A stretch of 64,000 nt of DNA from Obrimoposthia wandeli (taxonomy: Eukaryota), in contig CDROCS010001008.1 in NCBI GenBank assembly GCA_977020255.1, forward strand, positions 62,001-126,000, read 5' to 3'. Of the stretch, positions 1-21,100 are shown piece after piece (the stretch's first letter is position 1; the number at the start of each line of letters is the position of its first letter). The position numbers and the translations under genes are program-made. A model generated the notes under the pieces. It did not search any database, had not been told where the DNA came from, and worked only from the letters and a program-made list of their open reading frames with translations.

Positions 1-3000
1 GGTTCCATCGTGGTACTGGATCATTACTGCTGTTTTCAATGACTTCGGAATTACTACTACTATCTTTCCGACATTGTCGACAATATACAAGATTCCTTCT
101 TTTATTGAGTATTTTTTCGTCATTTCATCGTTTAGATCTCCTTTCACCAACAATTCTTTGATTAGACTCAGTTCTTCATCTTCTTTCTGTTCTTTGATGA
201 TCTCTTTGTCTATTTTACCCGTCTTCAGCAAAATCGTCAGTAGATTTGCTTCTCCTTTTTGGTCATTGGTTTCATCTTGTTCTTCCTCTGGAATTATGTT
301 TCCTTTCTCATCTATATTTGTCAATCTCGATAAACAATCTGCGTTGCCATTCGACTTTCCGGTTCTATAACGGATTTCTAGATCGAATTCGGCCAATTTT
401 AGAAACCATCTGTTTAATCTACTCATCTCATCTCTATGTTTATATAAGAACTGTAGTGGTTTGTGATCTGTATACAGGAATACTTTTTGTCCTAGCAAGT
501 AGTGTCTGTACTGTCTACATGAATACACTATGGCTAGACATTCCTTTTCAATAACAGAGTATCCTCTTTCGGCTCTGTTTAATCCTCTACTCGCATACGC
601 GATGACGTGTTCTCTTCCTTCGTCATCCTCTTGTCCCAATACTGCTCCTACAGCATAGTTACTTGCATCTGTCATGAGTATGAATTGTCGGTTTATATCT
701 GGAAACGCTAATATTGGTGCTTTTATCAGTCTTTCTTTTAAATGCTCGAACACTTGTTGGGCTTCTTCTCCCCATATGAACTTCTCATCTTTTCTCGTCA
801 ACTTTCTCAATGGTGTTGTTATATCTGAAAAATGTTCAACAAATCGTCTATAATAATTCGCAAGACCTAAAAAACTCTGTATCTCCTTAACAGTCTTTGG
901 CGCTAAATGCGCTTTTACTTTCTCGATCTTTGCCGGATCAGGTCGAATGCCTTCTTTCGATACTATATGTCCTAAAAATGTTACTCGCTCTTTAGCCCAT
1001 TCGCATTTTGTAGGTTTAACTTTTAATTTAGCGTTTTCCAGTCTTTTAAATACAACTTCAAGATTTTTTAAATGTTCTTCGAACGTTTTCGAAAATATTA
1101 TTATGTCATCGATATAAACCATCGTGTTTGCACACGATGCGAGTACAAAATTCATGCAACGCTGAAATGTTGCTGGAGCTCCTGTCAGTCCGAATGGCAT
1201 CTTTTCGCATTCGTATAATCCATCTCCGCAGGAAAAGGCTGTTTTGTGTTTATCCTCTTCCTCTATCTCGATTTGCCAGTATCCACTCTGCAAATCTAAT
1301 GTTGTAAAATAATCTGAATTACCCAATTTATCGAGCATCTCTTCGATTCTAGGTAATGGATACACATCTTTTCTTGTGATCTTGTTCAGTTCTCTGAAAT
1401 CTATACAGAATCTCATTTTCCCATCCTTCTTTTTTACCAACACCACAGGTGCTGAGAATGGTGAAAAACTTGGTCTAATTACTCCTGTTTTAGACATGTC
1501 TTCAATCTGACTTTTTACTTCATCTTGTAACTGTAATGGTACTCGATATGGTCTTCTTCTGACTACTTTGTCTTCTGTCAGTGGTATTGTATGTTTTATG
1601 ACAGGTGTTTCTCCTATGTCATATGGATTTTTTGCAATTACTTTCGGAAATTTATGTATTAGATCAAGTAATTGTTTCTTTTCTCTAGTTGTCAATCTTT
1701 CTGATTGGATTACTATTTCTTCGTAATCATTCGTATCTTTATCGAGTTTCATAGCACACACGGTGGGATTCTCCATCTGTGCTATCTTTCCCAACCTCAT
1801 TCCTCTGTATAATAGAATGTCATTGTTGGTTGTATTCATCAGTCTAACTGGTATTTTGTGGTTTTCGATCAGACATACTGTACTCACAACTGGTAATTCG
1901 TATTTCTCTATGAAATCTTGTGATGGTTCGAACACAACTGGTCCTTTATCTTCTGATAATGTGTGACCTTGAATGAGAAATTGTGATCTTTTACCGATTT
2001 TTATAGGATTCTCTATAATTACATCAATTTGGTTTATTTGTCTGTTTGATGTGCTATCCTTCAATCTCGGATCTTGTAAATCAATACTTATCCCTTTAAG
2101 TTGTGATAGTACATCCATTCCTAAAATTGTAGGTTCAGGACATTCTTTCATGATTCTAACTGGTATAGTGATCGTATTACGTCCAATTATAAATGTACAT
2201 GGTAATATTCCCGTCACTTTAACAGGGTCTCCATTGACCGATACCAAGAATTCATCTGGTTCTGCCATTGTTCGTTTCTGTTCTTCTGTCAAACAGTCTT
2301 CACTTACTATCGAAGCTACATCACCTGTATCAATTAAGGCTTTTACTCTTAAATTATTTACTCTAATGATAGCTGCTGGTCGCTGTGCTCCATTTATATT
2401 TCCCATATGGTATATTGTATTTATCGAATTATTACACTCTGTCGGTCCACTTCCTTTGTTTGGATAGTGAAATCTAATGTTTCTCACTTGTCGATCTATT
2501 ATTCTTCGACAAATCGGACATGATACCATTTCATTCGCACATCTCCGACATGTTCTTACATGTCCGCATGGTAGAAAGGCAACTTCTATTTTGTTGACCA
2601 TGTAAACTGCACATTCCGGATCTTCTAGTACGTATTCTAGTTCATTTATGTACTCTTTCTCTTTTGTTTCAATTGTACTGTCATCTTTATCTTTTAGTAA
2701 TTCAAAAATTGATCCGTATCCATTTCGCGTAGTTTTTATTTTTAATTCTACCAAATCTCTGATTCTTTCTGCTTCTTTTGGATATAACCTTCTCACGAAT
2801 GACACTACTGGTGTGTCTTGTTGAGCCAAAATCTCTTTCCGTGTGATTTGGTATTCGATTATACATTCGGTTTTCTGTTCTTTTTGCTTTATTTTGTTTT
2901 TAAAAGTACAAAATTCGCAAAATTCATGATGTAAAATTTTCTTAGGTAGCTCAAGAGTATATCTGTCGTTAATTCGTTCTTTTTTACACTTGTGGCATTT

Positions 3001-3681
3001 AATTACGTCTTTACCATCCTTTTTTATAGCAAAAAGTCCCTTTTTTGTCAATTTTTTAAGTCTTGGATCTTCGAAAGTTATTTCTCGATACTGTTCGTCA
3101 CATTCGTTCACTTCTCGCATAACTTCGAATATATCTTCAATTCGGCTATTTGTTATTACTCTACCTGTTATTAGAGCTGATTTTCCTTTTGGAATCTCGT
3201 CACTGTAATCGAAATCGGGTGCTTTTCCTTTTTGGATTTCTGGTACGTTTGACGTTTTCAGTTTCAAAAGAAATGGACAATTTGGTGCATCTCTTTTATG
3301 ACGTCTCATTGGGTTTTCATTCTTTTCCCACTCTCTAAACTTTACTCTACACCATACGCATCGTACTACTATCTCATGACCATAACTGCTTGTCGCGTTT
3401 AACATTTCTAAACCTGATCTTGCCATTTTACGTGCCATTTCTTTTGAATAGTACAGTTCTAATATATTTCGTCTCTTTTTCTCGAATCTCATGGGATCCT
3501 TTTCTGACAGATTCACATATGTTATTTTCCTCCTCGTCATCTCTTGTGGTCCGAGGTTTACGTTTTTGTAGTGAAGTATCGACTTTACTAGCGCTTCCTG
3601 TTTTTTGTCTTGGTACGAATTTCCCATACGGAACGTAGTGTATTTTTCCTTTTCGACATTTTTATCTCTCTCACTGAACTG
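1..3681 (-). CDS. pol: ORF2/Pol polyprotein: BIR-BIR-UBA-RING-protease-RT-RNase H-(integrase start); open at the window edge
   Basis: I translated it codon by codon from 3681 (after TGA 3682-3684) to base 1 with no stop (1227 codons). First ATG is at 3627. It is in the -1 frame relative to ORF1 and overlaps it at 3588-3681. It ends ...VVIPKSLKTAVMIQYHDGT, the start of the integrase Zn-binding region. Confidence 0.96.
324..684 (-). other. RNase H domain
   Basis: FILMTDASNYAVGAVLGQ...AYASR...YSVIEKECLAIV...YTDHKPL...NGNADCLSRL. Confidence 0.97.
841..1551 (-). other. Reverse transcriptase domain
   Basis: PYRVP...SPFSAPVVLVKKKDG...YIDD (1105-1116)...FLGHIVSKEGIRPDP...FLGLANYYRRF. Confidence 0.98.
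2085..2385 (-). other. Retropepsin aspartic protease 2 (in Pol)
   Basis: VKALIDTGDVASIVSE (DTG 2323-2331)...VSVNG...PTILGMDVL. Confidence 0.92.
2497..2613 (-). other. IAP-type RING finger (second Cys replaced by Tyr)
   Basis: CAVYMVNKIEVAFLPCGHVRTCRRCANEMVSCPICRRII matches the IAP RING pattern CxxC(M)xxxIxVxFxPCGHxxxCxxCAxxxxxCPICR. TAC at 2602-2604 stands where TGC is expected. Confidence 0.93.
2689..2820 (-). other. IAP-type UBA domain
   Basis: QDTPVVSFVRRLYPKEAERIRDLVELKIKTTRNGYGSIFELL resembles the cIAP UBA as I recall it (NTPVV...KILTTGENYKTV). It lies between BIR and RING, as in XIAP/cIAP. Confidence 0.7.
2905..3099 (-). other. BIR domain 2 (divergent)
   Basis: YREITFEDPRLKKLTKKGLFAIKKDGKDVIKCHKC...LHHEFCEFC: RxxTF, G-aromatic, DxxxCxxC, C-x2-C-x18-H-x6-C. 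Confidence 0.7.
3268..3492 (-). other. BIR domain 1
   Basis: KMARSG...VVRCVWCRVKFREWEKNENPMRRHKRDAPNCPFL has the exact canonical C-x2-C-x16-H-x6-C spacing, plus W and the terminal PxCPF. Confidence 0.92.
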
Positions 3682-5042
3682 TCATTCTTATAACTCTTGT
3701 TGTTTGGTAATATAATTATTCCTTCAAACATTCTTATTACGTCCATCCCAATCATGACTGGACTTCCGCAATCTGTGAATATTCTAGCATTTAACTGTAA
3801 TGCTCTTCCATCGATATTTAATGAACATTTCAGTGTTCCTTCCGACACTACATCTGTACCATTCACGTTAACAAATGTCTGTTTTCTAGGACATACTTCT
3901 CTTAATTCTTTTGATGACAAGATTTCTTTACTCAGTACTGATACTGCAGATCCAGTATCAACTTCGGCAAGATATTCTCTTCCGTTCAATGTTACTGCTA
4001 CTTGTGGTGGAGCATTTGGATTCTCATTTGATATCCTAGATTTCAGAATTCTTCTGGAATTATCTTTTTTGTCTTTTTCCTCTGCTTGTGGAATCTCACT
4101 GTAGCTCACTTTAGGCCATCTTATCATTAAGATGCCTCTCTTGAACTTTTCCTTCTCTTCCTTTAGTTCCTTCATTGGGTATAGGTTTAACGCCACTTCT
4201 TCCTTGTCTGGTAACGGAATCTTTGGTTTTCCTGGTATCTTTGCATATACTCCTGGGCTATCATTATCGTCGTCGTCTCGATAGTTTCTTGGTTCTCGCA
4301 TCATGGTTCTCGTTTGATGTTGCTTCTTCTTGAGGGCTCGCAACTCGTTCTCGTGATGATGGTGCATTAGATATTTTGCTAAAAATGGAAAACATCCAAT
4401 TATAAGTTGCCAGGTGATTCCGGTTATCCTGTATAAACTATACGTAGACAACACCTGGGCTATAATTACCTGTACAAATTTAATTATAACATAAATACCT
4501 ATGATACCCGAAAATAATTGTCCTAAAACAAGGAATTTCCCCCACATCTTTCTAAGTGTCTGATGTGCTGCTTCCTTGAAATGACTTGGTGATAATAACA
4601 TATCAAAATTCGCATATCTAGCTCCTGGTGGTAATGCTCGATGTACCATCTCCGTAAGTACTCTGGCTCTTTTTACTGGAAACATTATTTCGTTCCATGC
4701 CGCTTTTAAATCTTTTTCATTGTACAATCCTGCGTTCTCCATATTTTCTACCGCTTCAAATTTCATTTTACCTTTAAGATTCGTCATTCTTATCATCGCT
4801 GGAGTTTTCGTTGGCTTTCGATCAGGTAGCGTTATCCATAGATCATTCGTCATCTGATATTCAGGTGCCATTATATTAGAGCAGCTGATTTCTTTAGTTG
4901 GAGTGTCTTTTGGAAGTATCATTCTCGTGATTGGTTCAACAAAGAGTTCTTTTAAATTATACGTTACTGCCAATTCACTCGTACATCGATCTGTTTTTCT
5001 CAACTGTACCTCTACTTTATTACACTTGTAAGTATACAACAC
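3588..5042 (-). CDS. ORF1 C-terminal part: glycoprotein C-half, TM, cytoplasmic tail, protease 1 (in frame with 5043-9875 across one TAG)
   Basis: Same frame as the upstream ORF (ATG GGA TAG GTG TTG). TM/amphipathic segment MWGKFLVLGQLFSGIIGIYVIIKFVQVIIAQV (about 4365-4547). Protease motif LAEVDTGSAVS...VMIGMDVI. Confidence 0.9.
   Translation of the reverse strand: MLYTYKCNKVEVQLRKTDRCTSELAVTYNLKELFVEPITRMILPKDTPTKEISCSNIMAPEYQMTNDLWITLPDRKPTKTPAMIRMTNLKGKMKFEAVENMENAGLYNEKDLKAAWNEIMFPVKRARVLTEMVHRALPPGARYANFDMLLSPSHFKEAAHQTLRKMWGKFLVLGQLFSGIIGIYVIIKFVQVIIAQVLSTYSLYRITGITWQLIIGCFPFLAKYLMHHHHENELRALKKKQHQTRTMMREPRNYRDDDDNDSPGVYAKIPGKPKIPLPDKEEVALNLYPMKELKEEKEKFKRGILMIRWPKVSYSEIPQAEEKDKKDNSRRILKSRISNENPNAPPQVAVTLNGREYLAEVDTGSAVSVLSKEILSSKELREVCPRKQTFVNVNGTDVVSEGTLKCSLNIDGRALQLNARIFTDCGSPVMIGMDVIRMFEGIIILPNNKSYKNDSSVREIKMSKRKNTLRSVWEIRTKTKNRKR
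3600..3606 (-). promoter_or_regulatory. Putative -1 ribosomal frameshift slippery heptamer A_AAA_AAC
   Basis: ORF1-frame codons ACA AAA AAC AGG AAG CGC TAG. It has X_XXY_YYZ form in the correct phase, three codons before the ORF1 stop, and the -1 frame is Pol. Confidence 0.75.
3725..4010 (-). other. Retropepsin aspartic protease 1 (end of ORF1)
   Basis: PQVAVTLNGREYLAEVDTGSAVSVLS (DTG 3951-3959)...VNVNG...SPVMIGMDVI. Confidence 0.92.
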
Positions 5043-6218
5043 CTATCCCATGGTTTTAGCAAATACTCCTTCATCCAAGGGTAATAATGGTGCTACCATG
5101 TCTGGATTCGTAATAGCTAATACTAGCTTTGTTCTTACGATCTCTTTGTTTAGCTGGCAATCTCTTTCGATCATCATCCGATATAACTGTTCCATTTGCA
5201 TCAATCCTTTATGATAATAGAAATCAATTTTATTATTAAAATACGTGTGTAGCTGCATATCTCTAGGTTTTAGCTCGGTTTCTGCCAATGCTATTGCTTC
5301 TTTGGACAAAACTATTCCAGGATAGTTTGTAGTACTAACAGTCATTCCGCATCGCGCTTTGTTTCTCTTTTTAATAAATATCAATCCTTCTTCTATTGAT
5401 GTTGCCATTAACAGTGTAGGTGTCTTTGTCATTGGAATTGGTCTTGCTTCATTTAGCAATCCTTTTCCAACTTTATTATACAGGAATCCTTCTCCATCTT
5501 TATTATACAGGAATCCTTTTATTTTGTTAAAGCTAATCTCTTTCAAAAATACTAAAGAGCATTGCTTCGGATTCACGTGATACACAATTGTGGATTCGCC
5601 TGTAAAACAAGATGTATCTGTCATTTTACATTCTGGATACTTCATCATTAGTTGTGTCTTTTTATCAAAATTGGCAGTCCATGTTTTTAATTCAATTTTG
5701 TAAGTTACGTCCATTACTAACTCGGTTACTTTGGTTCCACGCACGTTTTTTGTTCCTCCGTCACAAGATCCATCAGCCCATCGTTGTCCGACTCTCGTGA
5801 CTGTTTCGTATCGTCTTAGTCCAATTTTTACATCAGGTTTGTAATTCTTGTCTACTTCTATTGTTCCCGTTCGAAATGCGTCCTCGCAATCTCTCGGCAA
5901 AACCTTATGTGCTTTGTACGATGTGGTAGGTGTGATTTCCGACATAAAACTTCTATGGCCACAATAGAATTCGTGATAACTTGAATGGATTGAACATTCT
6001 TTCACTTCTACTTGTACTTTATCAACGTCCTGATACACAAAGTAGTTTTCAACATCTTTAACTTCTAATTTTGACGGTTGTGATTCTGGACAGTCTTCGC
6101 TGTCAAGCAGTGAATACTTTTGTCCCATCTTTGGTATGCTACAGTCGTATGCTATCAATCCTGATGCCTGTTGCATTCCCATGAACATTACTAACATCAT
6201 CATCATTGTTGTGGACAT
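4365..6218 (-). other. env: Envelope glycoprotein, chuvirus G / herpes gB-like (class III fusogen), with internal signal peptide
   Basis: Hydrophobic MMMMLVMFMGMQQASG is followed by LIAYDC...SLL...DC, FYCGHRS, DCEDAFRTGTI, DGSCDGG, a Cys-rich ectodomain, DCQLN, KCNKVEV and a C-terminal TM. I recognise these motifs from chuvirus-type glycoproteins; no search was run. Confidence 0.8.
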
Positions 6219-9200
6219 ATTCGGCTGATTGTTTCTCTCTTTCGGACGGTATTGTTTATTTTCTCTTTGACGATTCTCATGACATTGTTCGTCATCGTCT
6301 TCATTCATTTCCACAATGGTTTTAGCGTAGTCACTTAATTTTGCCCAACCTCCGTTTTCGTCAATTCGTCTCTGTAATACATTCTCGATCAAATACATCG
6401 CTTCATTTATTCCTTGTTTGACTTCGTGAGGTTGGCTCATTCGTTCCGTCAATTGGAAACATAGATATGTAATCGCTGTAATTAACTTTTTATTTGTAGT
6501 CTGGTTTCCACACAATCTCGCTAAAACTTCACCGTCATAAAATCTATCTATTGATGCATGGTATACATGATTCGCAGTCATTCTCTTTACTGCAGACATC
6601 TGTGATCTAACTGCTTTAGTCAAATTGTCTGTTATATCGGTTGTTTCATCTCTGTACATTTTGAACAACTTCGGCTTCACTTGTCTGAGAATTCCCGTAA
6701 GTATATCTTTACTACTTGGAGTTTCCGAATTCATATCACCTCTGATATCTTCATTCCGCTCCGTACTATACTGCTCTAATGACGCTGCTAACTGTCCAAT
6801 GCTTAGATGTCTCTCTTCATCAGTTTGTGGTGCAGTTAGAACATTTCGTAATATACTTCCGTCTTTTCTAGGTCTTCCAGGTCCTCTTCGAAAATACTGA
6901 TACTCAGTTTGATTCTCTCCTGGATCATACGGTTCACCATTATACTGTATTTCTTGACTTGGTCCTTCTTCTTGGCCAATCTCTTCATTTTGTCGCATCA
7001 TCTGCTCTGCTTGTCTATCTTTGTATGCAGCATGCCAAATTGGTGAATCTAAATCTACAATTTCGGAGATTTCATCTTCTCCTACTAGTTGGTTTACGTT
7101 TTCGTTTTGTCTCGCTTGGTTAGCTGTATCCGTGACTTCATCTTGTCTGATTTGAATTATATCTGGTTCTGGTGGTACCTCGACCACTGGAGTTGTCAAC
7201 TCATTTTCTAAATTCATGTCTTGTAATTCAGCTACGTACGGTTCTGGTGTGGATGTCTTGTTCCAAGCTTCAGCTACATCATTATCTCCGCTTTCGCTTG
7301 AACTGTCTAAAATTTCTATAGGCGTTTTTATCATTTCTAACGCAGAATTTAATATCTCCGTTAATCCTTCATTATCTACTAACTCTTGACGTCCTACAGT
7401 GATGACATCAATTTTTTCCTCTAATTCATTTCCTATCGGATATCCACACTCGACTGGTACGTCCTCATCATCTAGTGATCTCCCTTTATAATGGAACAAC
7501 ATATTCATTCCATCAATTTCAAGTTTCTCGGCCAACTTTTTCCGAATAGTTTTCATTGTCTGATACACGTTAAGTTTTTCATGTATAATATGTCCGGAAA
7601 TTAATCGAAGTGAAATTTTCATCGTTCCTTTTTGGTTTGATCTCTGTACGTAACGATCATATCCTTTCAATAATCCTCGTGGTACTTCTTTGTAACCCAA
7701 GTTATCATGACTATGTTTAACCAATTCTGCTCGCACTTCTTCCAATCTGTGCACTTTAATTGTTTGCAATTTGGCCAAAACTTCTGGAGCTTCACTCGTT
7801 TCATCTAACGGTTGATTCAACGTCTCCTTAGCTTCACTAATTATCTTTTTTACATTTTCCATACTCGTAGCATTTCTGGCTGCTTCTACATGATCAGTCA
7901 TAGGTTGTGCGTTACACGTTTTCTCTATTGGTGTCTCATACGCTTCTAGTATTTGATTCATTAACTCATTCATCTCTTCTCTCGAGTGTAGACTTTTTTC
8001 TTGTTTCGACAACGTAGATGAATTCGCCATCTTTGTATGTGGTGAATCTTTAATTATTCCCAACATTCGTTCAAATTTACTATCACTATCTTCAAAATCT
8101 ATTTCGCGTCGAAGTTCGGTCTCGCGATTCCTATCGCTGTCATCGCTTACATAACTAAAATTTCCCTTCGGCTTCGGCGAACTCTCACGACTATTTGTCT
8201 TGTCAACATTATTATTATTATATCTACCGGAATTATTATATCTCTCAGCTCCTTGCTGTCCTACATAATTATTGTATCTCTCAGCTCCTTGCTGTCTGTC
8301 TGCATAGTTATTGTATCTACCTGGTGACTGTTGTCTATCTGTATACTGATTATTCGGTCTCCATGGCTGTGGAGTATATCCACCACCTCTATTCCATGGC
8401 GGAGGTGAATTATATCCTCTATAATTATTTCCAAAATTATTATTACCGAAATTATTATTTCCAAATCTGTTAGTTCCGAACTCCTTACTTCTCGTACAAT
8501 CTCTCGAATAGTGACCCATTTGTTTACACGTGTAACACATTATTCTCCCTCGAATATCTATCTTATTTTGTTCATCTTCGAACTGTACTCGACGACTATT
8601 CTGTCTATTATCATAGCGTCCTCTAAAATCATTTCTTCGGAAATTCGATTCAAAACCGCTTCCTCGATTATTGAATCTTCCGTCACTACTTCCTGTATTA
8701 TTTCCAAATCGAGAGTCACTTCGCTCTCCTCTGTTTGCGTTGTAATTCCTATCGTCTCCTCTCCAAGGTTGGCGATTTCCTGAATTATCTCTATTAAATC
8801 TATTCCTGGAATCATCTCTATTTCTATTCCACGAATCATTACCATTTCTACCTCTTGAATCATCTCGATTCCTGTTCCAAGACTCACTATTATTTCTACC
8901 TCTCGAATCATCTCGATTCCTACTTCGGAAATTATCTCTGTTTCCGTTACTGGATTCATCTACTTTTTCAAACTTATTTTGTCCATAATTTCGATTCTGA
9001 AAATTACTCGGTTCTGTTTTATTCACAAATACCTTTGTCTTATCGTCGTCACCTGCAGTCATTGCGTAAATTGCCAATGCTGCGTTATTTTTTATATTTT
9101 TCTCAATCTCTCTCGCCTTTCGCACGGCGTTATCAAAATCATTTGTATCCGATACTGCTAATAACACTTTAATATCTTTTTTCAATCCTCCTCTAAATAT

Positions 9201-9875
9201 ATCTAACAAAACCTCTGCCATTTCATTTTGGTTCCGGTCGTTTTCCGCTGCTTGTGCTTCTTGAGCTACAGGAATACCGTCCTGATTTCTCATTATTCTT
9301 CTTGGGTACGCTCTTGCGGCCAAGGTTCTCAAAACATACGCGTATTCATTCACACCTTCGTCATGTTTCTGTTTCCGTTCTCTCATGAGTCGCTTATTTA
9401 CTTTGGCTAAGTCTCCTAATACCAATTTTCCAATAAAAGCATTTTCCAACGTTGGCCAGTCTAAACGTTCTGCTTCTGTCAAATGTTTATACACTTCAAG
9501 TGCTAATCCGGTTAAGTGTGCCTGTACTCGGACACATTTTTCTTTATCGTTCCATCCTTGAACATCTGCACAACTCGAATATTCTGCGAGGAAGTCACAA
9601 ATAATTTCCTCATCTCCTTTAAACTTTGTAATCTGCAATGATCCTGAAAAGTTGGGTCTCAACGTCGCATTTAAAGCTTGTGCCAACTGTTCGGCATTCA
9701 TGTCACCTACATTATTTCCTGCATTATTATCTGCTTGAGCTCCTGGGTGAGCCATATTTTCAATTATATCCTCTTCAACTATTCCTTCAATATTATTCAA
9801 TTGAACTTCCTCAATCACTACTGGATTGGCAATTTCAAATTCTTCTGGGTTTATGTCACCAAATAATTCAGTCAA
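5043..9875 (-). CDS. gag: ORF1 N-terminal part: Gag (capsid, CCHC), UBL, AT-hook, Bcl-2-like, signal peptide, glycoprotein N-half
   Basis: 1610-aa ORF from TTG 9875; first ATG at 9755. Retrotransposon capsid-like segment ITKFKGD...DFLAEY...GWND...HLTGLALEVY...W..L...F, and zinc knuckle CYTCKQMGHYSRDC. Confidence 0.93.
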   Translation of the reverse strand: MTELFGDINPEEFEIANPVVIEEVQLNNIEGIVEEDIIENMAHPGAQADNNAGNNVGDMNAEQLAQALNATLRPNFSGSLQITKFKGDEEIICDFLAEYSSCADVQGWNDKEKCVRVQAHLTGLALEVYKHLTEAERLDWPTLENAFIGKLVLGDLAKVNKRLMRERKQKHDEGVNEYAYVLRTLAARAYPRRIMRNQDGIPVAQEAQAAENDRNQNEMAEVLLDIFRGGLKKDIKVLLAVSDTNDFDNAVRKAREIEKNIKNNAALAIYAMTAGDDDKTKVFVNKTEPSNFQNRNYGQNKFEKVDESSNGNRDNFRSRNRDDSRGRNNSESWNRNRDDSRGRNGNDSWNRNRDDSRNRFNRDNSGNRQPWRGDDRNYNANRGERSDSRFGNNTGSSDGRFNNRGSGFESNFRRNDFRGRYDNRQNSRRVQFEDEQNKIDIRGRIMCYTCKQMGHYSRDCTRSKEFGTNRFGNNNFGNNNFGNNYRGYNSPPPWNRGGGYTPQPWRPNNQYTDRQQSPGRYNNYADRQQGAERYNNYVGQQGAERYNNSGRYNNNNVDKTNSRESSPKPKGNFSYVSDDSDRNRETELRREIDFEDSDSKFERMLGIIKDSPHTKMANSSTLSKQEKSLHSREEMNELMNQILEAYETPIEKTCNAQPMTDHVEAARNATSMENVKKIISEAKETLNQPLDETSEAPEVLAKLQTIKVHRLEEVRAELVKHSHDNLGYKEVPRGLLKGYDRYVQRSNQKGTMKISLRLISGHIIHEKLNVYQTMKTIRKKLAEKLEIDGMNMLFHYKGRSLDDEDVPVECGYPIGNELEEKIDVITVGRQELVDNEGLTEILNSALEMIKTPIEILDSSSESGDNDVAEAWNKTSTPEPYVAELQDMNLENELTTPVVEVPPEPDIIQIRQDEVTDTANQARQNENVNQLVGEDEISEIVDLDSPIWHAAYKDRQAEQMMRQNEEIGQEEGPSQEIQYNGEPYDPGENQTEYQYFRRGPGRPRKDGSILRNVLTAPQTDEERHLSIGQLAASLEQYSTERNEDIRGDMNSETPSSKDILTGILRQVKPKLFKMYRDETTDITDNLTKAVRSQMSAVKRMTANHVYHASIDRFYDGEVLARLCGNQTTNKKLITAITYLCFQLTERMSQPHEVKQGINEAMYLIENVLQRRIDENGGWAKLSDYAKTIVEMNEDDDEQCHENRQRENKQYRPKERNNQPNMSTTMMMMLVMFMGMQQASGLIAYDCSIPKMGQKYSLLDSEDCPESQPSKLEVKDVENYFVYQDVDKVQVEVKECSIHSSYHEFYCGHRSFMSEITPTTSYKAHKVLPRDCEDAFRTGTIEVDKNYKPDVKIGLRRYETVTRVGQRWADGSCDGGTKNVRGTKVTELVMDVTYKIELKTWTANFDKKTQLMMKYPECKMTDTSCFTGESTIVYHVNPKQCSLVFLKEISFNKIKGFLYNKDGEGFLYNKVGKGLLNEARPIPMTKTPTLLMATSIEEGLIFIKKRNKARCGMTVSTTNYPGIVLSKEAIALAETELKPRDMQLHTYFNNKIDFYYHKGLMQMEQLYRMMIERDCQLNKEIVRTKLVLAITNPDMVAPLLPLDEGVFAKTMG
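6321..6710 (-). other. Bcl-2-family-like domain (divergent)
   Basis: BH3-like ILRQVKPKLFKMYRDE (cf. TLRQAGDDFSRRYRRD), weak BH1-like TNKKLITAITY (cf. VNWGRIVAFFEF), BH2-like LQRRIDENGGWAKLSDY (cf. LHTWIQDNGGWDAFVELY). NGGW is at 6345-6356. Confidence 0.6.
6859..6890 (-). other. AT-hook motif
   Basis: RRGPGRPRKDG contains the GRPRK core. Confidence 0.65.
7386..7622 (-). other. Ubiquitin-like (beta-grasp) domain
   Basis: MKISLRLISGHII...TMKTIRKKLAEKLEI...LFHYKGRSLDD aligns ungapped to ubiquitin 1-52 with identities at M1, I3, G10, I13, T22, K29, K33, I36, G47, L50 and D52. No C-terminal GG. Confidence 0.8.
8496..8537 (-). other. Gag CCHC zinc knuckle
   Basis: CYTCKQMGHYSRDC (CX2CX4HX4C). Confidence 0.97.
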
Positions 9876-9925: not shown

Positions 9926-10132
9926 CGATTTCTCAAAACTTATCAAATTCCTAACTTCGAGGAACAAATCTACTCGATTTCTCAAAACTTATCAAATTCT
10001 TAACTTCGAGGAACAAATCTACTCGATTTCTCAACACTTATCAAATTCTTAACTTCGAGGAACAAATCTACTCGATTTCTCAACACTTATCAAATTCTTA
10101 ACTTCGAGGAACAAATCTACTCGATTTCTCAA
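9926..10132. repeat. 49-bp tandem repeat, 4 full copies plus a partial, in the 5' leader
   Basis: Unit cgatttctcaaaacttatcaaattcttaacttcgaggaacaaatctact starts at 9926, with full copies to 10121. Confidence 0.95.
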
Positions 10133-10139
10133 AAAAAAC

Positions 10140-10527
10140 TTATCTCAATTTACTTATATCTTCTTCTGAAACTTATTCTAAATTTGCTTATATCTTCTTC
10201 TGAAACTTATTCTCAATTGTCTATATTCTTCTGCTGAAACTTATTCTCAATTTATCTGAAACTTATTCTCAATATCTGAACTTATTCTATTTACCTGAAA
10301 TTTATTCTCAATTATCTGAAACTTATTCTCAATATCTGAACTTATTCTATTTACCTGAAACTTATTCTCAATATCTGAACTTATTCTATTTACCTGAAAC
10401 TTATTCTCAATTATCTGAAACTTATTCTCAATATCTGAACTTATTCTATTTACCTGAAACTTATTCTCAATATCTGAACTTATTCTATTTACCTGAAACT
10501 TATTCTCAATATCTGAACTTATTCTAC
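10140..10527. repeat. Compound ~19/38-bp tandem repeat in the 5' leader
   Basis: Reiterated ctgaaacttattctcaatat / ctgaacttattctattta units. Confidence 0.9.
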
Positions 10528-10552: not shown

Positions 10553-10571
10553 ATCCTCACTCGGGACACCA
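10553..10571 (-). promoter_or_regulatory. Primer binding site, complementary to a tRNA 3' end (elongator tRNA-Met-like)
   Basis: Minus strand reads TGGTGTCCCGAGTGAGGAT. The plus strand ATCCTCACTCGGGACACCA ends in CCA and resembles elongator tRNA-Met 3' ends (...ATCCTCACACGGGGCACCA). The tRNA identity is inferred. Confidence 0.85.
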
Positions 10572-11189
10572 CTTTAATATGTTGGGGTTTCTATACGAGA
10601 CTTGTATAGATCCTCTTGTGTGCGGAGGGCCCCAACGTGAGTTCGAATAGAAGCAGGTCTTAAAGTTGGTCGTGGCCTACTTAGTGCTATGGTTGCCTGT
10701 CTCAATTTCTTATCTGAAGGTGTTTGTTTTGACGTCTCTTAATCTGAAGGGTTTAAAACAACGTTTTCTAATGTAGGAAATCGTTTATTGGTAGCACACT
10801 AAACTGAACACAACAATACGTTTACGTACGTATTTTCTAAAAAGTATAGTAAAAATTCCTAAGACTTCTGTAAGTCTCTACAACAAGTGGGGATGAACCA
10901 CGTATCGATTTTACGTTCGGGGTGATCGAGATTTTAGAGTTATTCCTCTGACTCGAGAATGAGCTCACGTTACAGATTTCTCAACAATTTAACTCTGCTA
11001 TCGGCTTGAACTTTTGAGGTTAAACCTTTATTCTTATGTCAATAAAGGTGCGAATGCAAAACTTCTTTCTAAGTTGGTTAATTTATAACACAACTCTTTT
11101 AAAACTTTCTTTTAACTTAGACGAAAACTTAAATCGTGTTGGGTAAAGCTGTCTTTAATTTGGATAACTTTCTATTGTTACGAATTCAG

Positions 11190-11630
11190 ACGAGAATTGT
11201 CAACTTCGGACAATGAATGAATGACCTAATTGTCAACTTCGGACAATGAATCGAATTTAGGCCTAATTGTCAACTGTGGACAATGATTCGTATGGAGGCC
11301 TAATTGTCAACTGTGGACAATGATTCGTATGGAGGCCTAATTGTCAACTGTGGACAATGATTCGTATGGAGGCCTAATTGTCAACTGTGGACAATGATTC
11401 GTATGGAGGCCTAATTGTCAACTGTGGACAATGATTCGTATGGAGGCCTAATTGTCAACTGTGAACAATGATTCGTATGGAGGCCTAATTGTCAACTGTG
11501 GACAATGATTCGTATGGAGGCTTAATTGTCAACTGTGGACAATGATTCGTATGGAGGCCTAATTGTCAACTGTGGACAATGATTCGTATGGAGGCCTAAT
11601 TGTCAACTGTGGACAATGATTCGTATGGAC
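11190..11630. repeat. 37-bp minisatellite, ~12 copies, inside the LTR
   Basis: Unit ggaggcctaattgtcaactgtggacaatgattcgtat; the AATTGTCAAC core recurs every 37 bp from 11228 to 11598. Confidence 0.97.
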
Positions 11631-11780: not shown

Positions 11781-12093
11781 CTCAATTTGTCTTCTTTAAT
11801 TTTCACTCAATTTGTCTTCTTTAATTTTCACTCAATTTGTCTCTTTAATTTTCACTCAATTTGTCTCTTTAATTTTCACTCAATTTGTCTCTTTAATTTT
11901 CACTCAATTTGTCTCTTTAATTTTCACTCAATTTGTCTCTTTAATTTTCACTCAATTTGTCTCTTTAATTTTCACTCAATTTGTTTCTTTAATTTTCACT
12001 CAATTTGTCTCTTTAATTTTCACTCAATTTGTCTCTTTAATTTTCACTCAATTTGTCTCTTTAATTTTCACTCAATTTGTCTCTTTAATTTTC
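11781..12093. repeat. 24-bp minisatellite, ~13 copies, inside the LTR
   Basis: Unit tttaattttcactcaatttgtctc, which produces the LIFTQFVS repeat ORF. Confidence 0.97.
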
Positions 12094-12603
12094 GACTCCA
12101 ATTATTTTTTCTGAAATTAGTTAGTAAAATTCTTTTATACTAATTCCTTACCTCTCAGCAACCGCGACTGTCAATTCTGGACAGCTGAAATAAATTGAAG
12201 TAGTGAGCGCTGCAGTAACTGACTGTGACGCTTCCTGTCACTCAAATTTGGCAGCTGAAATAAAACAACGATTGTTGGGGATTGACTGGCTGAAAATAAA
12301 GTAAACGATTTAATCAATAATCGTAACTTACAGCAATTTCTTCTTTCCTTGATTTCTTTTTCGATTATTTGCTTGCTTTTTGCTTCTTAGTTTATTTTCT
12401 TTTTGCACTTTAATATTTTCCAATCAACCTATATATATAACACATTACACACGACCTTCGTGGTCCTCTTAATATTTACCCCTAATTTTAGTCCTAATAT
12501 TTTAACTCGATTTTAAATATTTAATTTTCAACCTTGCTTTCAAGGATTTTTATTTTAGTATAAATTTAACTAATTCTTTTAATTTTTCAATTCCTAAATC
12601 TAA

Positions 12604-13755
12604 CACATATATTTTAATAACAAAAAGGATTATCATAAAGGATTAATACATAAGGAACAAATATATCAGATGATGGTTGAGTTAGATTGTCAGTTAAATA
12701 AAGAGATACTAAGAGCAAAGTCGGCACTAGCTATTACGAATACAGACATGGTATCACCACTATTACCATAAGATGAAGGAGTATTTTCTAAAATCATGGA
12801 AGAAGTACTGAACAAGTGTAAAAAAGTAATGGTACAATTGAGAAAGACAACTTGCCAGTAACATATCATTTTGTAGAATCAAAAACAAAAAAAGGCTTTC
12901 TAAAGTCACTCAAACTAAAGAAATCAGTTGCTCTAGTATAATAGCATATGAATATCAACTTTTAACGAACAGTGACTCCAGAATTATAAAAATGACAACA
13001 TTAAAAGGTAAGATGGAGTTCAAAGCTGTAAGGAATGTTGAAAATCCAAGTTTATATAATGAGAAAGATCTAAAAGCTGTCTGGGAAGAAATAATGTTTC
13101 CAGTAAGAAGGGTCAGGGTACACACGGAAATGGAGCAACATATGTAAATTTTGATAGGATTTTGTTGGTAAGTCACTTTAAAGAAGCGGTAGATCAAATT
13201 CTTAGGAAAATTTGGGTGGAAATCCTTATTTTATGACAACTATTCTCAGACCTAATATGAATTTATGTCATAATTAAATTAGTACAAGTAATTATAACCT
13301 AGGTGTTGTTCACATATAGTTTGAACATAATAACAGGAATCCCCTGGCAACTTATAACTTGATGTTTACTATTTTAAGTGAAATAATTAATGCACCATCA
13401 TCACGTGATTTAATTGCGAGCACTCAGAAAGAGCAACCGGAAGTTAGAACCGCATCACGAGAACCAAGTCACATACGAGATGATGACAATTACGATAACG
13501 ATGGTCACGGAGACTATTCAAATATGCCAAATACGGTATACGTTAAGATTCCACCGAAAAAATATATAGAAGATTCAGTACCAAATATATACACTGAAGG
13601 AACTAAAGGAGGAAAACGATAAGATCAAAGCAGAAATTCTTAAAATAAAATCCCCCAGAATGACGTCTGATCATCTTCTACTGACAAAGGAACCAAAGAA
13701 GAAAAAGATAATGCAAAAATAATTTTGAGGGAAAGAATATCTAACGATAATACAA
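12604..13755 (+). pseudogene. Degenerate env-region relic of a related element, inverted relative to the intact copy
   Basis: Translates with stops and indels to YFNN...YHKGL...DCQLNKEILR...VFSKIMEEVL, LYNEKDLKAVWEEIMFPVRRVRV, HFKEA..ILRKIW and RISNDN, collinear with ORF1 positions ~5250 to ~4020. Confidence 0.93.
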
Positions 13756-15187: not shown

Positions 15188-18100
15188 CTGTGGAAAGAGA
15201 GAGCGTGAGTGAATGAGTAAAATAGTGAGTGACAGTGAGCGATTAAATGAATGAAAGTTAGTGAGTGAGAGTGGGTGAGTGAGAATGAGTTAAATTGAAT
15301 GAAAGTGAGTGAGCATAGTGGGTGAGTGAGAGTGAGATTGAGATAGAGTGAGAATGAGAGGGGTAAGAAGGAGAATAAGAGAGATTTAGAGTAGGTGAGT
15401 GAGAGAGAGTAATTTAGGGAGAAAGTAAATAAATGAGAGTAATTGACAGTCAAGTAGAGTGAAGAGCTAAAAAGATGAAAGTCAAATTTTACATAAAAAA
15501 CTTGAAAATAATATTTTACAATAATTATTACAAATAAACGTTCTTTTTATATGCGACTAACATTTCTATGTCAATTTTAACAAAAATAGAAGATAGTAAT
15601 TTTATTCCCTAATTTTAATTTTTTAATCTTATTTTTTGATTTAGGTGTTTTTACTTTTACTCGGTAGATAAGTGGGATAAATATGCATAAGTCAATTCTC
15701 ACTTTTATAAGGTCGCTGTCTATCCGCAAAAGTTGGTAGCCGGAAGTGACACCGCCCTTAATCAGAGTTTCTTGCAGGTGGCTGATACCGGCACTCTTTA
15801 GCCAATCCGCGATCTGGTTTTGCTGCCACTCATTGATTGGCTCCTGTAAGATAGGTAGATCAAATAATAAGTTCTGTAATGTCTCATATCGGATCGAGAC
15901 GGTGATACCTGCACACATACCTGGGTGGGGACTGACGCCAACGTGTATGAGTCCTTGTTGGACTGGTCGCGGGGCAGATAGCTGCTGGGGATGCCTGGAG
16001 AACCGGATGCGACTGCTGCTGACGAGGACGAGGACGAAGACGGCATCGTAATGAACCGCGGACCTACATGCAACCACACAATAATCTATTGTATCTTTCA
16101 GGACAGAGGAAGCATATCCTCATATTTTATACACGATACATTTACTTTATCAAAGTATAAAAATTTGGAATATTGCTTGTTACTTCTGCCTTTGTTAGCC
16201 TTCACATAAATAACATATTGGTCTACTGTATTTCCTGTTGTCTTAACTGTATTGGTGACTTGTGCAAACAACCGCATATCAAGATTCAAGGATCCCAATA
16301 CACACATGACTATTTCGCAACCGAAATCCTGTGTCAACATATAATGAACTTTTGGATGCTCAATTAGAAATGAACCACTTGTTAAATATATATTTTTAAA
16401 AATTCACCACGAAAGTTTATTTTTTTTCAAAAATAATATATTTAAATATATATAATATTCTTGATTTTATTTAATTCATATTATTACTATTTCTTTTTTT
16501 CAAATTTCAATAGTTTCTATACATCTCTTTAAATTCGCGGGCCACGCAACTTATTGAACATGAGTAGGTAACGATCTCATCAGCACAATATGTTTCAATA
16601 AATTATTTGAACCATTTGTTACCTGATCATATCGTTTAATGATAATCCACATTAGTTCCTAACAACCAATTAAAAAATGTGTCATCAACGTCAAATTTTC
16701 AGAAGGATTATCTTGTAGTTTGCCATTACGTACATAACTTTAATTAAAAGAAATTCGTACAATAATTAAAACAAAACAAACAATATGAAATGTTTGATAT
16801 GACATTCGCATTTGTGAAATATTAACTACATTTAAGCAAATCTATATAAACAAACTTTAACGACAATTAATAAAATTAGAAAATTTAAAATTACTAAAAG
16901 GTAGGTATAAATTATTACAAATCTGGATTATTTTTTAATGATGATCAGCGTATCAAAATGGATCATTCTGTGAATGGAGGTTGAAATATGTGATAACACT
17001 ACATCCTATTCGAGTACAATCGTAAATCAGATGAATTCATTGAGATTGTAAATGAACTTCCGAAAATTTACATTGCTATATATGCAGAATATCGTTGAAA
17101 ATGCATTTTCTCCATTGCTATCAGGAGTTCTTTTTCGGTAACTTGCGGGATATGTCTAATGACATATGGTACTACAGTGCTGGACAAAATATAAGCCAGT
17201 AAAAAATATGTTCACAATTATTCAAAATTAAATAATTTGTAAGAGATTTAAAAATACAATTTTAGAATCTACTATGAGACATAATATCTTAGTTTCAATA
17301 TCAATTTATTTTTCGGCAAAATCTCTATCGGTTTTTGAAAAAAATAGGTTTAAGTAAACAAAGACGTATTTTTTTATTTATTTACATTGGACAAAAGTGG
17401 CTTATAATTTTTTTAAATTCAGAATTATTGGTAATTAATAATTTTATAAATATAATTGATTATTTTTTTTAAATAATTTGGTTTCTTGAATGTGTGATCT
17501 ACATTTTTCATAATTTTTTTTTAGATTTATGGCACGTGGAAATGGTTTAACAGAAGAAGAGAAGTGTAACATTGACCGTTATAATAATGAAGGCTTGAAC
17601 CCATCTCAGATTGCAGAAAAGTTGACAAGAAGTAGAGGTGCTGTTAGAAATTATTTAGAAAATAAAACAAGTGGGCAATTGGGCCGTCCTAGGTCATTAG
17701 ATGACCGATCTGTGAGATTATTATGCAGAAAAGCCTCTAATTCTACTAAAAGTTCAGCTCAGTTAAAATCCAACTTAAACCTAAGCTGTTCCTCTCGAAC
17801 AATAAGACGCAGATTATCCGATAATCTTGTATTCTTAAAAATGATATCAAAACCAAATTTGACATCCAGGCACATTGAAAGACGACTTCTGTTTGCTAGA
17901 AATAATCTTAGTACTAATTGGTCAAGAATCATGTTTTCCGATGAAAAAAGATTCAATCTTGATGGTCCAGATGGTCTAAGCAGCTATTGGCACGACAAAA
18001 GAATGCCTCCCATGTCAAAAATTAGAAGACAGTGTAAAGGCGGTGGTATCATGATTTGGGGTGGATTTTCGAAAGAAGGGTTAACTAGTTTATCATTCAT

Positions 18101-21100
18101 AAATGTTAGGATGAACTCTGAAAAATACCAAGAAGTTTTGACAGACCATATTCTACCTTTTACGCAAAAATTTGATATTTTTCAACAGGATAATGCGAGT
18201 GTACATGCTTCTCAATCCACTAGAACATGGTTAGCTGAAAACAATATCAATATTTTAGACTGGCCAGCATGTAGTCCTGATTTAAATCCAATAGAAAATC
18301 TTTGGGGCATTATGGTTAGAGATGTTTATGCAGATTCAAAACAATATGCATCTGTTAATGAACTGAAAACTGGCGTTTTAAGAGCCTGGGAGAAAATAGG
18401 ACAAAACACAATTGATACACTAATTCATTCAATGCCTAATAGGATTTTTGAATTAATTTTAAAGAAAGGAGCAAGCACGCATTATTAGATTTTGTAATTT
18501 GTAATTATTTATTTATTAAAATATCATAAATTAATTAAGTGGCTTATATTTTGTCCAATATAAATAAACTAAATTTTGTTAGTTTTTTATATTTTTGATG
18601 ATAAAATTTAAATTAATTATCAAAATTTCTAAAAAATAAAAATATTATATTAATAAATGTAATAATAATTATGTTATTCAATATCACTTCGATTCTACTA
18701 TTATTTATTTCCTTTTTTTACAAAAAACAGGAATAAAATATACTGGCTTATATTTTGTCCAGCACTGTAGCAGAACAGCACCAATTAGACATGAAAATAA
18801 TGATAGCAGTCTAACCATCCAGCATGGCGTCATTGGCAATCGGTTTTGCAGACATGAGGACGACCTTCTCGTGGTCCTTAGGCCCACGGGTCACGCTGCT
18901 CTTTCTGATCTTGTTGTCTCCCGAGGCCTCTCCAGAAGAAATGACGCCCTTCTTGCTATTGGCGGCGCTGCTGGAGGGAGTGATGCCTGCAGGAACAACA
19001 GCAGTCAAAGGAACAACTTGTGAATATAGCTCTTCAATACCATCTCAGAAGTGTACAGTGCCGAACACAGATGCTACCTTTTCTCGCATTGCCTTGATAT
19101 ATGTAACAAATAAACAAACTATCTGAGCTATTAAAGTTACTGTAAAATAAATAAATTTTAAAAATGCCAAATTGTGAATTATATATCGAAAATATTTTCA
19201 ATGCTACTCAAAATCGTACTTACATTTACGATATGATTAAAATAAAGGGAAAATCACAAATTTTATACTGAAACTAATCAAATAAACGCTGTTCATTTTG
19301 TACATAATATAATCATAATGAAGATAAGTATCATTAACAAGATAAGTTTTCAAAACTATAAATCACAGATTTTTATAATATTTTAAAATTTGCTTAATCA
19401 TCCTAAAACAATACGATTAGCAAATTTAAAAAGTATTTTTTACTTTCTTCTACATTATTTCACATCAAAGTGTATTCATTTAGTAGATTTATTTTTATTT
19501 AAATTGTTTTAAAATGCATAACAATGTTATTATGTATAACTTTAAAATTTGATTTACTTTGAATTTCTGATAACGTTTTTGAGTATCTAATATTTTAACA
19601 TTGTTCCTGCTAACTAATTTGAGAATTTTTTGTAAATATCAAGAACATTTGTGATTTATACTTAGATAACTTTCCTTGTAAGATGCATAAATTTAAAAAA
19701 TTGGTGTCAAATTTTCAAATGTCTTGAGAATTTCGAATGTTGATAAAAATGAGTTATAGTAATTTTCAGTTATTCATAGACATAAATATTACATATGTTA
19801 GGTCATTCCAAAAAACATCATGACTTGTAAAATCAACACGAACATTTGTCACACATTTCTCTCCAAAAATCAAATAAACTGCGATAAGTATTGCGATAGT
19901 AACATAAGCCAAGGTCGAATAATGTTCATTGGACCATGCGGTTGACCAATTGGCATCATCATGCGCAACCTACCTACACAACACGGTCGGCAAAGTGTCC
20001 GACAAAACCAGTAATATCCTGCAACCAGGGACATATTTCAAGGTTAATCGATCACGGTGTCAACTGTTGTCACAGTGACCTTCATCAAAAGGAATTTTCT
20101 GAGCCTTATAATTGAGCATTTTTGCATAAAATCAGAATCTTAAAAAATAAAAATCATACCGAATGAGAGTTTATTATAGCACGCAGTAGCGAACTGTCTC
20201 TGAATTTCAACACGCAACTTAACATTAAAGAGGCGCCATATATTTTGAATATACGAAAAAATAAGAAATATTTCACAAAACATTCATGAAATTAATAAAA
20301 GTTCCAATTCAGTACTTTTTGGTCAAAAAACTCAATTAGTTCATTACCATTAATATGGTTTAGAAATTCTTTTAGAAATTCTTAGAAAGACGTAAGAGAT
20401 TCCAAATGTATTTCAAATAATGCAAAATATAGGAACTTTTGATTTTTCAAATTGTTTAATCTGGTTTAAGTTAGTTGGATGCATCTCGGAGAAAAAGCGT
20501 TATTTTCTCAACAAAGGTAACTTCTGGTAATATTTAATAACACATATTTAAAATCACACCCAAAAACATTTTTTTGAAAATGGTCTTCAGAAAGTCTGTT
20601 AAGTGTCTATTAGCCATCATTTTCTCTAAAAAGGCTTCTGATAATATAAGGGCTTTTCAAACTAGTCGTACTTATTTTTTGATATGTTGAACAGCACATC
20701 GAGAAATTTCTCTACTTTTCTATGGATCAGTCCACCACTGATTTCACGTACATTTCAAATGATTAAAAGATTTCTTACAAAAACACAATGTGCAGATGCT
20801 TTTAGAGTTGAAAGGGATTACTTTAAATGAAGATTCAAATTATCTGTCACAACTTCAATTCCTAGAGATTCACAATTACAGTTTGTATGCATGCAGGAAA
20901 TCGAATTTATTGATTTTCTTGTTTTTTAAATACATTTTTCATACCTGATCTGGATGATTTTATAAACAGTGTTGAAATCAAACAGGAATCAAACAATGTA
21001 TTTACTGGGCTATTTAATAGTGTAATAAAAGTAATGTTGTCACTAAAAACACTTTTGGTGATAACTTATATATTGATTTCCGTATTTCAATGCATGTCAA

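What the first reader, a model, noticed from the sequence alone, without database searches (positions are those of the whole stretch)
2085..4010. Two paralogous aspartic proteases bracketing the IAP cassette
Seen: PR1 (DTG 3951-3959, end of ORF1) and PR2 (DTG 2323-2331, in Pol) are similar along their length. Both have DTG..S, V.VNG, G.L.C, C..P..(I/L)GMDV and GI.I. Established: LTR elements normally encode a single retropepsin that acts as a homodimer. Inference: a template-switch event duplicated PR while inserting the IAP. The copies may now have divided roles (membrane-tethered, abundant PR1 versus Pol-level PR2) or may heterodimerise.
Basis: partly seen in the sequence, partly recalled or inferred. 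Interest (0 to 1): 0.7.

Follow-up and report, generated by a model that had tools for sequence, protein, structure and literature searches.

The report
Retroelement carrying several protease copies
This is a decayed copy of an animal retrovirus-like element of the planarian Burro type that carries two intact-looking proteases instead of the usual one; extra proteases turn out to be a habit of its relatives too, and the anti-cell-death gene between them is just one of several cargoes found in that slot.

Summary
Observation confirmed: two retropepsins (DTG 3951-3959, 2323-2331), 32/111 identical, flank a BIR-BIR-like-RING IAP. They lie in a Ty3/gypsy element ordered Gag, ubiquitin-like, Bcl-2 fold, class III Env, PR1, IAP, PR2, RT, RNase H: the layout published for planarian Burro. 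Interpretation partly supported. 11 of 12 Env-bearing relatives have 2-4 proteases, 0 of 14 has the IAP, and 38 of 38 domains keep D[TS]G; so duplication does not need the IAP. Relatives' extra proteases form their own class; PR1 sits on the Pol-protease side in 4 of 4 trees (sister to PR2 in 2), unresolved by AU tests. The 'abundant PR1 versus Pol-level PR2' idea is weak: 7 of 8 relatives reaching RT have both in one ORF, and other copies depart from this copy at the frame break. Best reading (0.55, inferred): PR1 on the Env tail cuts cargo and Pol free of the membrane; PR2 matures the particle. Heterodimer: weak model support only. Multiple proteases were not found in print.

The parts
3705..4001 (-). 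PR1, post-Env retropepsin domain (DTG 3951-3959)
   Evidence: Pfam; profile; fold
2074..2373 (-). PR2, pre-RT (Pol-type) retropepsin domain (DTG 2323-2331)
   Evidence: Pfam; scores 97.9 bits with Pol-type versus 82.3 with accessory profile
2452..3600 (-). IAP cargo: BIR (3268-3441), second BIR-like zinc motif (about 2914-3096), RING (2491-2622; one zinc ligand missing in this copy)
   Evidence: Pfam BIR E 1e-9, RING E 3.7e-10; second motif from invariant Cys/His in alignment with 5 relatives at 26-31%, not matched by Pfam
3588..3681 (-). Frame break between the env-PR1 frame and the IAP-pol frame; other copies part from the window near 3656-3657
   Evidence: (tables 7, 8)
5043..5045 (-). In-frame stop inside env, private to this copy
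   Evidence: about 98% of laid depth differs here in 3 of 3 runs that cover it; Env continuous in 12 of 12 relatives
4254..6218 (-). Class III-type Env (PF24664) with internal signal-peptide-like start (about 6159-6218) and transmembrane segment (4431-4538)
   Evidence: Pfam E 3.7e-39 and 1.7e-47; hydropathy; signal peptide by inspection
6288..6815 (-). Bcl-2-fold domain
   Evidence: model pLDDT 67; all listed Foldseek rows are Bcl-2 family, best E 5.7e-3, prob 1.0
7443..7607 (-). Ubiquitin-like domain
   Evidence: Pfam ubiquitin E 0.091, weak; matched in 5 relatives at 27-34%
8493..9755 (-). Gag: capsid-like region and CCHC zinc knuckle (8493-8537)
   Evidence: Pfam zf-CCHC E 9.2e-6; capsid region matches relatives at 25-31%
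1747..2049 (-). Conserved domain between PR2 and RT (the position of Burro's dUTPase-like motif)
   Evidence: no Pfam match; unnamed eukaryotic clusters at 0.95; identity with dUTPase not shown
385..1437 (-). Reverse transcriptase (961-1437) and RNase H (385-699); integrase would lie beyond position 1
   Evidence: Pfam
10555..10572 (-). Putative primer-binding site, tRNA-Leu-like (9 of 12 against the tRNA-Leu end listed)
   Evidence: by inspection
10573..11180 (-). Putative 5' LTR; outer edge undetermined (tandem arrays at 11195-11629 and 11781-12103 may belong to it)
   Evidence: position next to the PBS; second LTR is outside the window; arrays

Best explanation
The two proteases are the standing architecture of a Burro-like GAG-ENV-POL gypsy lineage, not a by-product of IAP capture. 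Shown: order of domains, intact triads, the same post-Env and pre-RT positions in IAP-less relatives. Inferred: the element makes one polyprotein that Env threads through a membrane, so everything behind the Env transmembrane segment (PR1, IAP, PR2, RT, RNase H, integrase) starts out tethered on the cytosolic side. PR1, held on the tails of an Env oligomer, can dimerise there without waiting for capsid assembly and cuts itself, the cargo and Pol off the Env tail; PR2 travels with RT and does the usual maturation. A cargo placed between two self-excising proteases is released as a free protein, which is why the slot takes an IAP here and zinc fingers, coiled coil or a membrane protein elsewhere. 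PR1 is an old copy of the Pol protease, either made independently in this deepest-branching lineage or an early offshoot of the relatives' accessory class.
For: 11 of 12 Env-bearing relatives have 2-4 proteases, the first 135-378 aa after the conserved WGKFL motif (window 182); 0 of 14 relatives match an IAP profile (best domain E 0.037); 7 of 8 relatives that reach RT have post-Env PR, pre-RT PR and RT in one ORF; 38 of 38 domains keep D[TS]G at about 20% mutual identity; accessory and Pol-type domains are separable (33 of 33 by leave-one-element-out profiles, 3 of 3 new domains of L001; split 99/97 and 100/98), so the extra copies are long-kept and distinct; a third protease precedes a second predicted membrane protein in 3 of 3 elements where both hydrophobic segments were called (P0031, P0178, P0181); all parts of the window's element are evenly covered in a very high-copy family (30 of 30 bins).
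Against: No activity or substrate was tested. P0185 has Env, a second membrane protein and a single protease, so the extra copy is dispensable there; L001, P0030 and P0185 have the second membrane protein without a protease just before it. P0038, P0180 and P0184 end after their proteases without RT, so a one-ORF design is not universal (may be breaks, contig ends or real). The D[TS]G count comes from a profile seeded on such domains. PR1 does not clearly belong to the accessory class (62.5 versus 67.4 bits; lacks the class's tail tryptophan). Continuity of the reading frame in this family was not confirmed directly.
Confidence: 0.55

Rival explanations
1. One reading: in this lineage one recombination event duplicated the Pol protease and placed the IAP between the copies.
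For: PR1 lies on the Pol-type side in 4 of 4 trees and is sister to PR2 in 2 of 4 (87/88, 88/90); PR1's best pairwise match is PR2; the window's RT is sister to all 7 other family RTs, so an independent duplication is possible.
Against: PR1 occupies the same post-Env position as the extra protease of IAP-less relatives; AU tests do not reject PR1 in the accessory class (p 0.37, 0.25, 0.29); PR2 is closer to four pre-RT domains of other proteins (scores 179, 177, 168, 149) than to PR1 (148); no nucleotide trace; shared base composition can pull two domains of one genome together.
Confidence: 0.15
2. Redundant accretion: extra protease domains are tolerated duplicates that add dose or supply ready-made cleavage sites; no separate substrate set.
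For: Copy number varies from 1 to 4 per ORF, with recent tandem duplicates (P0038 second and third, 99/96); one relative manages with one.
Against: All 38 domains keep the triad; accessory domains form a long-separated class with its own C-terminal motif (tryptophan in 18 of 19 versus 0 of 10).
Confidence: 0.15
3. Obligate PR1:PR2 heterodimer or single-chain pseudo-dimer, as in the origin of pepsin.
For: Both in one chain in relatives; weak model support: ipSAE 0.34, best of 3 controls 0.00, runs agree in at least 70% of contacts, partner pLDDT at least 73 (the mark was reached by 51 of 78 solved and 2 of 108 mismatched pairs, but at 0.60 or under by only 5 of 78 solved and all 4 passing mismatches of 180).
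Against: Retropepsin homodimers are solved, so a pass is expected from likeness; homodimers were not run for comparison; spacers vary from 81 to about 450 aa and many elements have odd numbers of copies.
Confidence: 0.08
4. Chimaera of two elements, one giving gag-env-PR1 and the other IAP-PR2-pol.
For: Low PR1/PR2 identity; a frame break lies between the halves.
Against: RT and Env both branch outside the same subgroups; even depth across the junction in three runs and a contig of a second study spanning it; the same layout recurs in relatives.
Confidence: 0.05
5. Expression variant (separate from origin): the frame break is a programmed -1 frameshift, making PR1 abundant and IAP-Pol rare, or the IAP-pol ORF starts at its own ATG.
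For: One in-phase slippery heptamer at 3606-3600; the 4 IAP relatives that include the RING end in a stop right after it; some relatives end ORF1 before pol.
Against: Such heptamers occur at 15 of 3340 codons, about 12% chance in the overlap; no stimulatory fold downstream (z 0.3, -0.8, 0.04); 33-64 contigs per run leave the window's sequence at 3656-3657 with 87-99% agreement, and a contig of a second study crosses with gaps.
Confidence: 0.15

Closest known systems
Burro / GYPSM1 giant gypsy elements of planarians (as described in PMC6431247, section 7)
   Same: Gag with CCHC knuckle, ubiquitin/SUMO-like, BCL2-like, in-frame mononegavirus-type Env between gag and pol, BIR, a domain between PR and RT; ankyrin repeats occur in relative P0180.
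   Different: Text read names one PR and no duplicate (figure not visible); Burro exceeds 30 kb and has MATH/Smc/ankyrin, not seen in the 11 kb available here; no Burro sequence was compared.
GAG-ENV-POL 'ancient errantiviruses' with HSV/gB-type Env (PMC13524379)
   Same: Ty3/gypsy RT, env between gag and pol, class III-type Env, multicopy, 12-18 kb elements in Bryozoa, Platyhelminthes, Nematoda.
   Different: That paper mentions 'protease' once, as a single PRO domain, and 'apoptosis' never; no cargo or multiple proteases described.
Clan AA: LTR-retroelement retropepsins versus two-domain pepsins (PMC2642776)
   Same: Single-domain enzymes that dimerise; pepsin thought to come from duplication of such a unit.
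   Different: Here the duplicates are separated by variable cargo, not fused into one bilobed fold.
RNA-virus polyproteins with several proteases, and retroviral protease trimming of the Env tail (both recalled, no call)
   Same: Accessory proteases dedicated to particular junctions; cleavage at the cytosolic side of Env.
   Different: Other protease classes, or a single protease; functional analogy only.

Membership tests
Retropepsin (clan AA, A2-like) | D[TS]G triad and hydrophobic-hydrophobic-Gly-x-Asp helix motif | tested here: met
   both domains
Retropepsin (clan AA, A2-like) | Retropepsin fold | tested here: met
   PR1 model matches EIAV protease E 3.7e-6 and Ddi1; PR2 by Pfam RVP above cut-off, not folded alone
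Retropepsin (clan AA, A2-like) | Active as a dimer | not testable with these tools
   only a weak heterodimer score
Ty3/gypsy LTR retroelement | PR-RT-RNase H-integrase order | tested here: inconclusive
   PR, RT, RNase H in order; integrase beyond the window, present after RNase H in relatives
Ty3/gypsy LTR retroelement | Two LTRs and a PBS | tested here: inconclusive
   PBS-like site at 10555-10572; second LTR outside the window
GAG-ENV-POL errantivirus, gB-type | env between gag and pol | tested here: met
GAG-ENV-POL errantivirus, gB-type | Class III (gB-like) ectodomain fold and cysteine bridges | not tested
   only the Pfam PF24664 match
Burro | BCL2-like, ubiquitin-like and BIR domains | tested here: met
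   (ubiquitin-like weak)
Burro | Giant size (over 30 kb with LTRs) | tested here: inconclusive
   element runs off the window; gag to RNase H spans 9.8 kb, which suggests a smaller element
Burro | MATH_TRAF, Smc, ankyrin domains | tested here: not met
   none in the part inside the window; the 3' part is unseen
Burro | dUTPase-like motif between PR and RT | tested here: inconclusive
   conserved domain present, no Pfam name
Burro | RT clade shared with Burro1-4 | not testable with these tools
   no Burro sequence was available from a tool
Accessory protease class of the relatives (defined here) | Higher score with accessory profile and tail tryptophan | tested here: inconclusive
   PR1 67.4 versus 62.5 bits, no tryptophan, AU p 0.25-0.37

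The most novel reading that the evidence does not exclude
Burro-like GAG-ENV-POL elements are a lineage of Ortervirales-type elements that run their polyprotein with two functionally distinct retropepsins: a conventional Pol protease and a dedicated, membrane-proximal accessory protease with its own dimer interface, placed at membrane-protein junctions and repeatedly duplicated (up to four per ORF, perhaps six per element); the window's lineage re-invented this independently from its own Pol protease and uses the slot between the two to release a free IAP.
Probability: 0.3. Interest if true: 0.8.

Novelty: new variant of a known kind. Interest (0 to 1): 0.58.

Why it matters
LTR elements and retroviruses are taken to have one protease whose dimerisation at particle assembly times maturation. 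A lineage that keeps two to four intact, long-diverged copies would show how a one-ORF element with Env in the middle separates release from the membrane from capsid maturation, and how it can carry exchangeable host-manipulating cargo (IAP, Bcl-2 fold). It offers natural pairs for asking how duplicated retropepsins avoid or use cross-dimerisation, the step proposed for the origin of pepsins. The domain menu itself (Env in frame, Bcl-2, BIR) is already published for Burro, which caps the surprise.

Tried and rejected
No own genome is held, so copies could not be read from an assembly. Two homologue searches could not be made, so longer fused forms of PR1 and relatives above 5000 aa (Burro-size) were not searched. 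Viral-contig scans found nothing (0 of 7 and 0 of 24 pattern matches); the IAP alignment was too divergent to scan, so the genomic context of the five IAP relatives is unknown; the metagenome scan gave 1 of 203. No RNA holder listed: no evidence on expression. Sequence search of the Bcl-2 region against PDB gave nothing useful; the fold search did. Atlas look-ups only repeated 'retropepsin' or gave unnamed clusters. Earlier-findings look-ups were empty. Trees: 47 rows first; then 16 rows dropped (9 long outgroup rows, 1 truncated domain, 6 near-duplicates); then also P0031's long post-Env domain dropped and 3 L001 domains added. Readthrough of the env stop rejected as a family feature. Literature: no paper for 'two protease domains' with gypsy; nothing relevant among listed titles for duplicated/second/tandem protease, retropepsin-heterodimer (79), aspartic protease domains (87), Burro-aspartic (96); PMC3124438 irrelevant. 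The original Burro paper was not held; its figures, the Repbase entry and the figure of PMC6431247 may show two proteases.
Full report
1. Observation. On the minus strand the window holds three long frames: 9932-5046, 5042-3591 and 3681-1. The second ends in a retropepsin (PR1, DTG at 3951-3959), the third carries BIR, RING, a second retropepsin (PR2, DTG at 2323-2331), RT and RNase H. PR1 and PR2 align at 32/111 identity, score 150 against at most 60 in 2000 shuffles, with no DNA similarity left. PR1 models as a retropepsin.

2. The element. Upstream lie Gag with a CCHC knuckle, a weak ubiquitin-like match, a Bcl-2 fold (all listed Foldseek rows are Bcl-2 family, best E 5.7e-3) and a PF24664 fusion glycoprotein split by a stop at 5043-5045. 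A tRNA-Leu-like PBS is at 10555-10572. The IAP has a BIR, a second BIR-like zinc motif and a RING, and five full-length or partial relatives at 26-31% identity. This domain order is what PMC6431247 (section 7 read whole, plus passages) describes for planarian Burro/GYPSM1: Gag, Ubi/SUMO-like, BCL2, in-frame Env, PR, BIR, one huge ORF. PMC13524379 (abstract, first parts of sections 5 and 6, section 22, passages, rows of supplement 1, term search of 7 supplements) reports GAG-ENV-POL elements with gB-type Env in Bryozoa, Platyhelminthes and Nematoda. I file the element as Burro-like, not as Burro: MATH, Smc and ankyrin are absent from the visible part, size is unknown and no Burro sequence was compared.

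3. It is one decayed copy of a very abundant family. About 290,000-340,000 contigs per run were laid in three runs of one sample (possibly the source), with depth in 30 of 30 bins from RNase H to Gag; a run of a second study covers 29 of 30. The env stop is private: about 98% of the depth differs there, and Env is continuous in 12 of 12 relatives. Private substitutions also fall beside PR2's triad and in the RING. At the frame break, 33-64 contigs per run leave the window's sequence at 3656-3657 with 87-99% agreement, and a contig of the second study crosses it with gaps (tables 7, 8; only the best-supported rows are shown). An in-phase slippery heptamer exists at 3606-3600, but the chance is about 12% (15 of 3340 codons) and no structure follows. 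I rate the break a lesion of this copy at about 0.8; this stays an inference.

4. Relatives. Searches returned 11 Env-bearing proteins and one locus (L001); two pairs are near-duplicates, leaving 10 lineages. 11 of 12 (9 of 10 lineages) have two to four retropepsins; P0185 has one. 0 of 14 family proteins match a profile of the IAP; four of them lack RT, so an IAP elsewhere in those elements is not excluded. The usual order is Env, protease, spacer, protease, RT, RNase H, integrase, often a third protease, then a predicted membrane protein. 7 of the 8 that reach RT have both proteases in the same ORF. The spacer is 81-386 aa and holds C2H2-like fingers or coiled coil (by inspection), or a membrane protein in L001; the window's IAP fills the same slot. 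38 of 38 domains keep D[TS]G (the profile was seeded on such domains). P0038 (four) and P0030 (two) are both listed on a 21,743-base contig, so one element may have six; this is inferred from the length alone.

5. Two classes. Pre-RT domains and the extra ones separate at 100/98 and 99/97 (72/98 with long outgroup rows; 77/82 without the tail columns). Leave-one-element-out profiles of 33 by position, and 3 of 3 in L001, found later. The accessory class has a tryptophan after the last helix in 18 of 19, the Pol type in 0 of 10; that this tail builds the dimer sheet in gypsy-type proteases is recalled, not tested. PR2 is Pol-type. PR1 is ambiguous: 67.4 bits accessory versus 62.5 Pol-type, no tryptophan, Pol side in 4 of 4 trees, sister to PR2 in 2 of 4 (87/88, 88/90, unstarred), yet AU tests do not reject the accessory class (p 0.37, 0.25, 0.29). 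The window's RT is sister to the 7 other family RTs (99/99) and its Env is likewise a long outside branch. So PR1 is either an independent duplicate of the Pol protease in this lineage or an early offshoot of the accessory class. A chimaera is not indicated.

6. How it most likely works (inferred, 0.55). With Env in frame between Gag and Pol, the chain crosses a membrane; PR1, cargo and Pol hang on the cytosolic Env tail (transmembrane segment 4431-4538). Retropepsins work as dimers (PMC2642776, passages). Env oligomers would bring PR1 copies together before capsid assembly, letting PR1 release the IAP and Pol, while PR2 matures the particle. A cargo between two self-excising proteases comes out free. 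In favour: fixed post-Env position, kept triads, a third protease before a second membrane protein in P0031, P0178 and P0181. Against: P0185 does without; L001, P0030 and P0185 lack the third; nothing was assayed. Rivals: duplication together with IAP capture (0.15), redundancy (0.15), obligate heterodimer (0.08; ipSAE 0.34, best control 0.00, weak, expected from likeness to solved dimers, alignments not used), chimaera (0.05). That IAP and Bcl-2 fold keep the host cell alive is the suggestion already made for Burro, untested here.

7. Novelty. The domain menu is known. Several intact proteases per element, in two classes, were not found in the texts and searches listed (other hits seen as search listings only; PMC8532177 passages, silent on it). 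The original Burro paper, the Repbase entry and all figures could not be seen and may show it. Verdict: new variant of a known kind, interest 0.58; the most novel reading has probability 0.3 and would deserve 0.8.

Noticed in passing
window 12603-13755 (+): Decayed second env fragment, 68% nucleotide identity to 4016-5250, many stops, ending just before where PR1 would start.
   Followed up: partly
window 17514-18488 (+): Open Tc1/Tc3-type transposase frame (DDE_3 E 2.4e-17).
   Followed up: partly
window 15577-16119 (-): Probable host exon with a SAM domain (E 6e-5).
   Followed up: no
window 51304-51510 (-): Short remnant similar to the start of the RT region, 34%.
   Followed up: no
window 9926-10526, 11195-11629, 11781-12103: Tandem arrays of 49, 34, 39/60/99, 37 and 24 bases in the 5' leader and beside the putative LTR.
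   Followed up: no
window 8558-8959 (-): 133-aa acidic, Ile/Glu-rich alternative frame overlapping the Arg/Asn-rich Gag repeats; probably a by-product of the repeat.
   Followed up: no
L001 10617-12107: 496-aa ORF downstream of the polyprotein with what looks by eye like a DEDDh exonuclease motif; not searched.
   Followed up: no
L001 2-10282; P0031, P0178, P0181, P0185, P0030: A second predicted membrane protein after integrase (and a further one between the proteases in L001), of no named family.
   Followed up: partly
P0185: A family member annotated by its source as a Flavobacteriaceae MAG protein; almost certainly animal DNA mis-binned.
   Followed up: no
P0027, P0028, P0033, P0035, P0106: Stand-alone IAP-like proteins that match the window's IAP along its length; context unknown.
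   Followed up: partly
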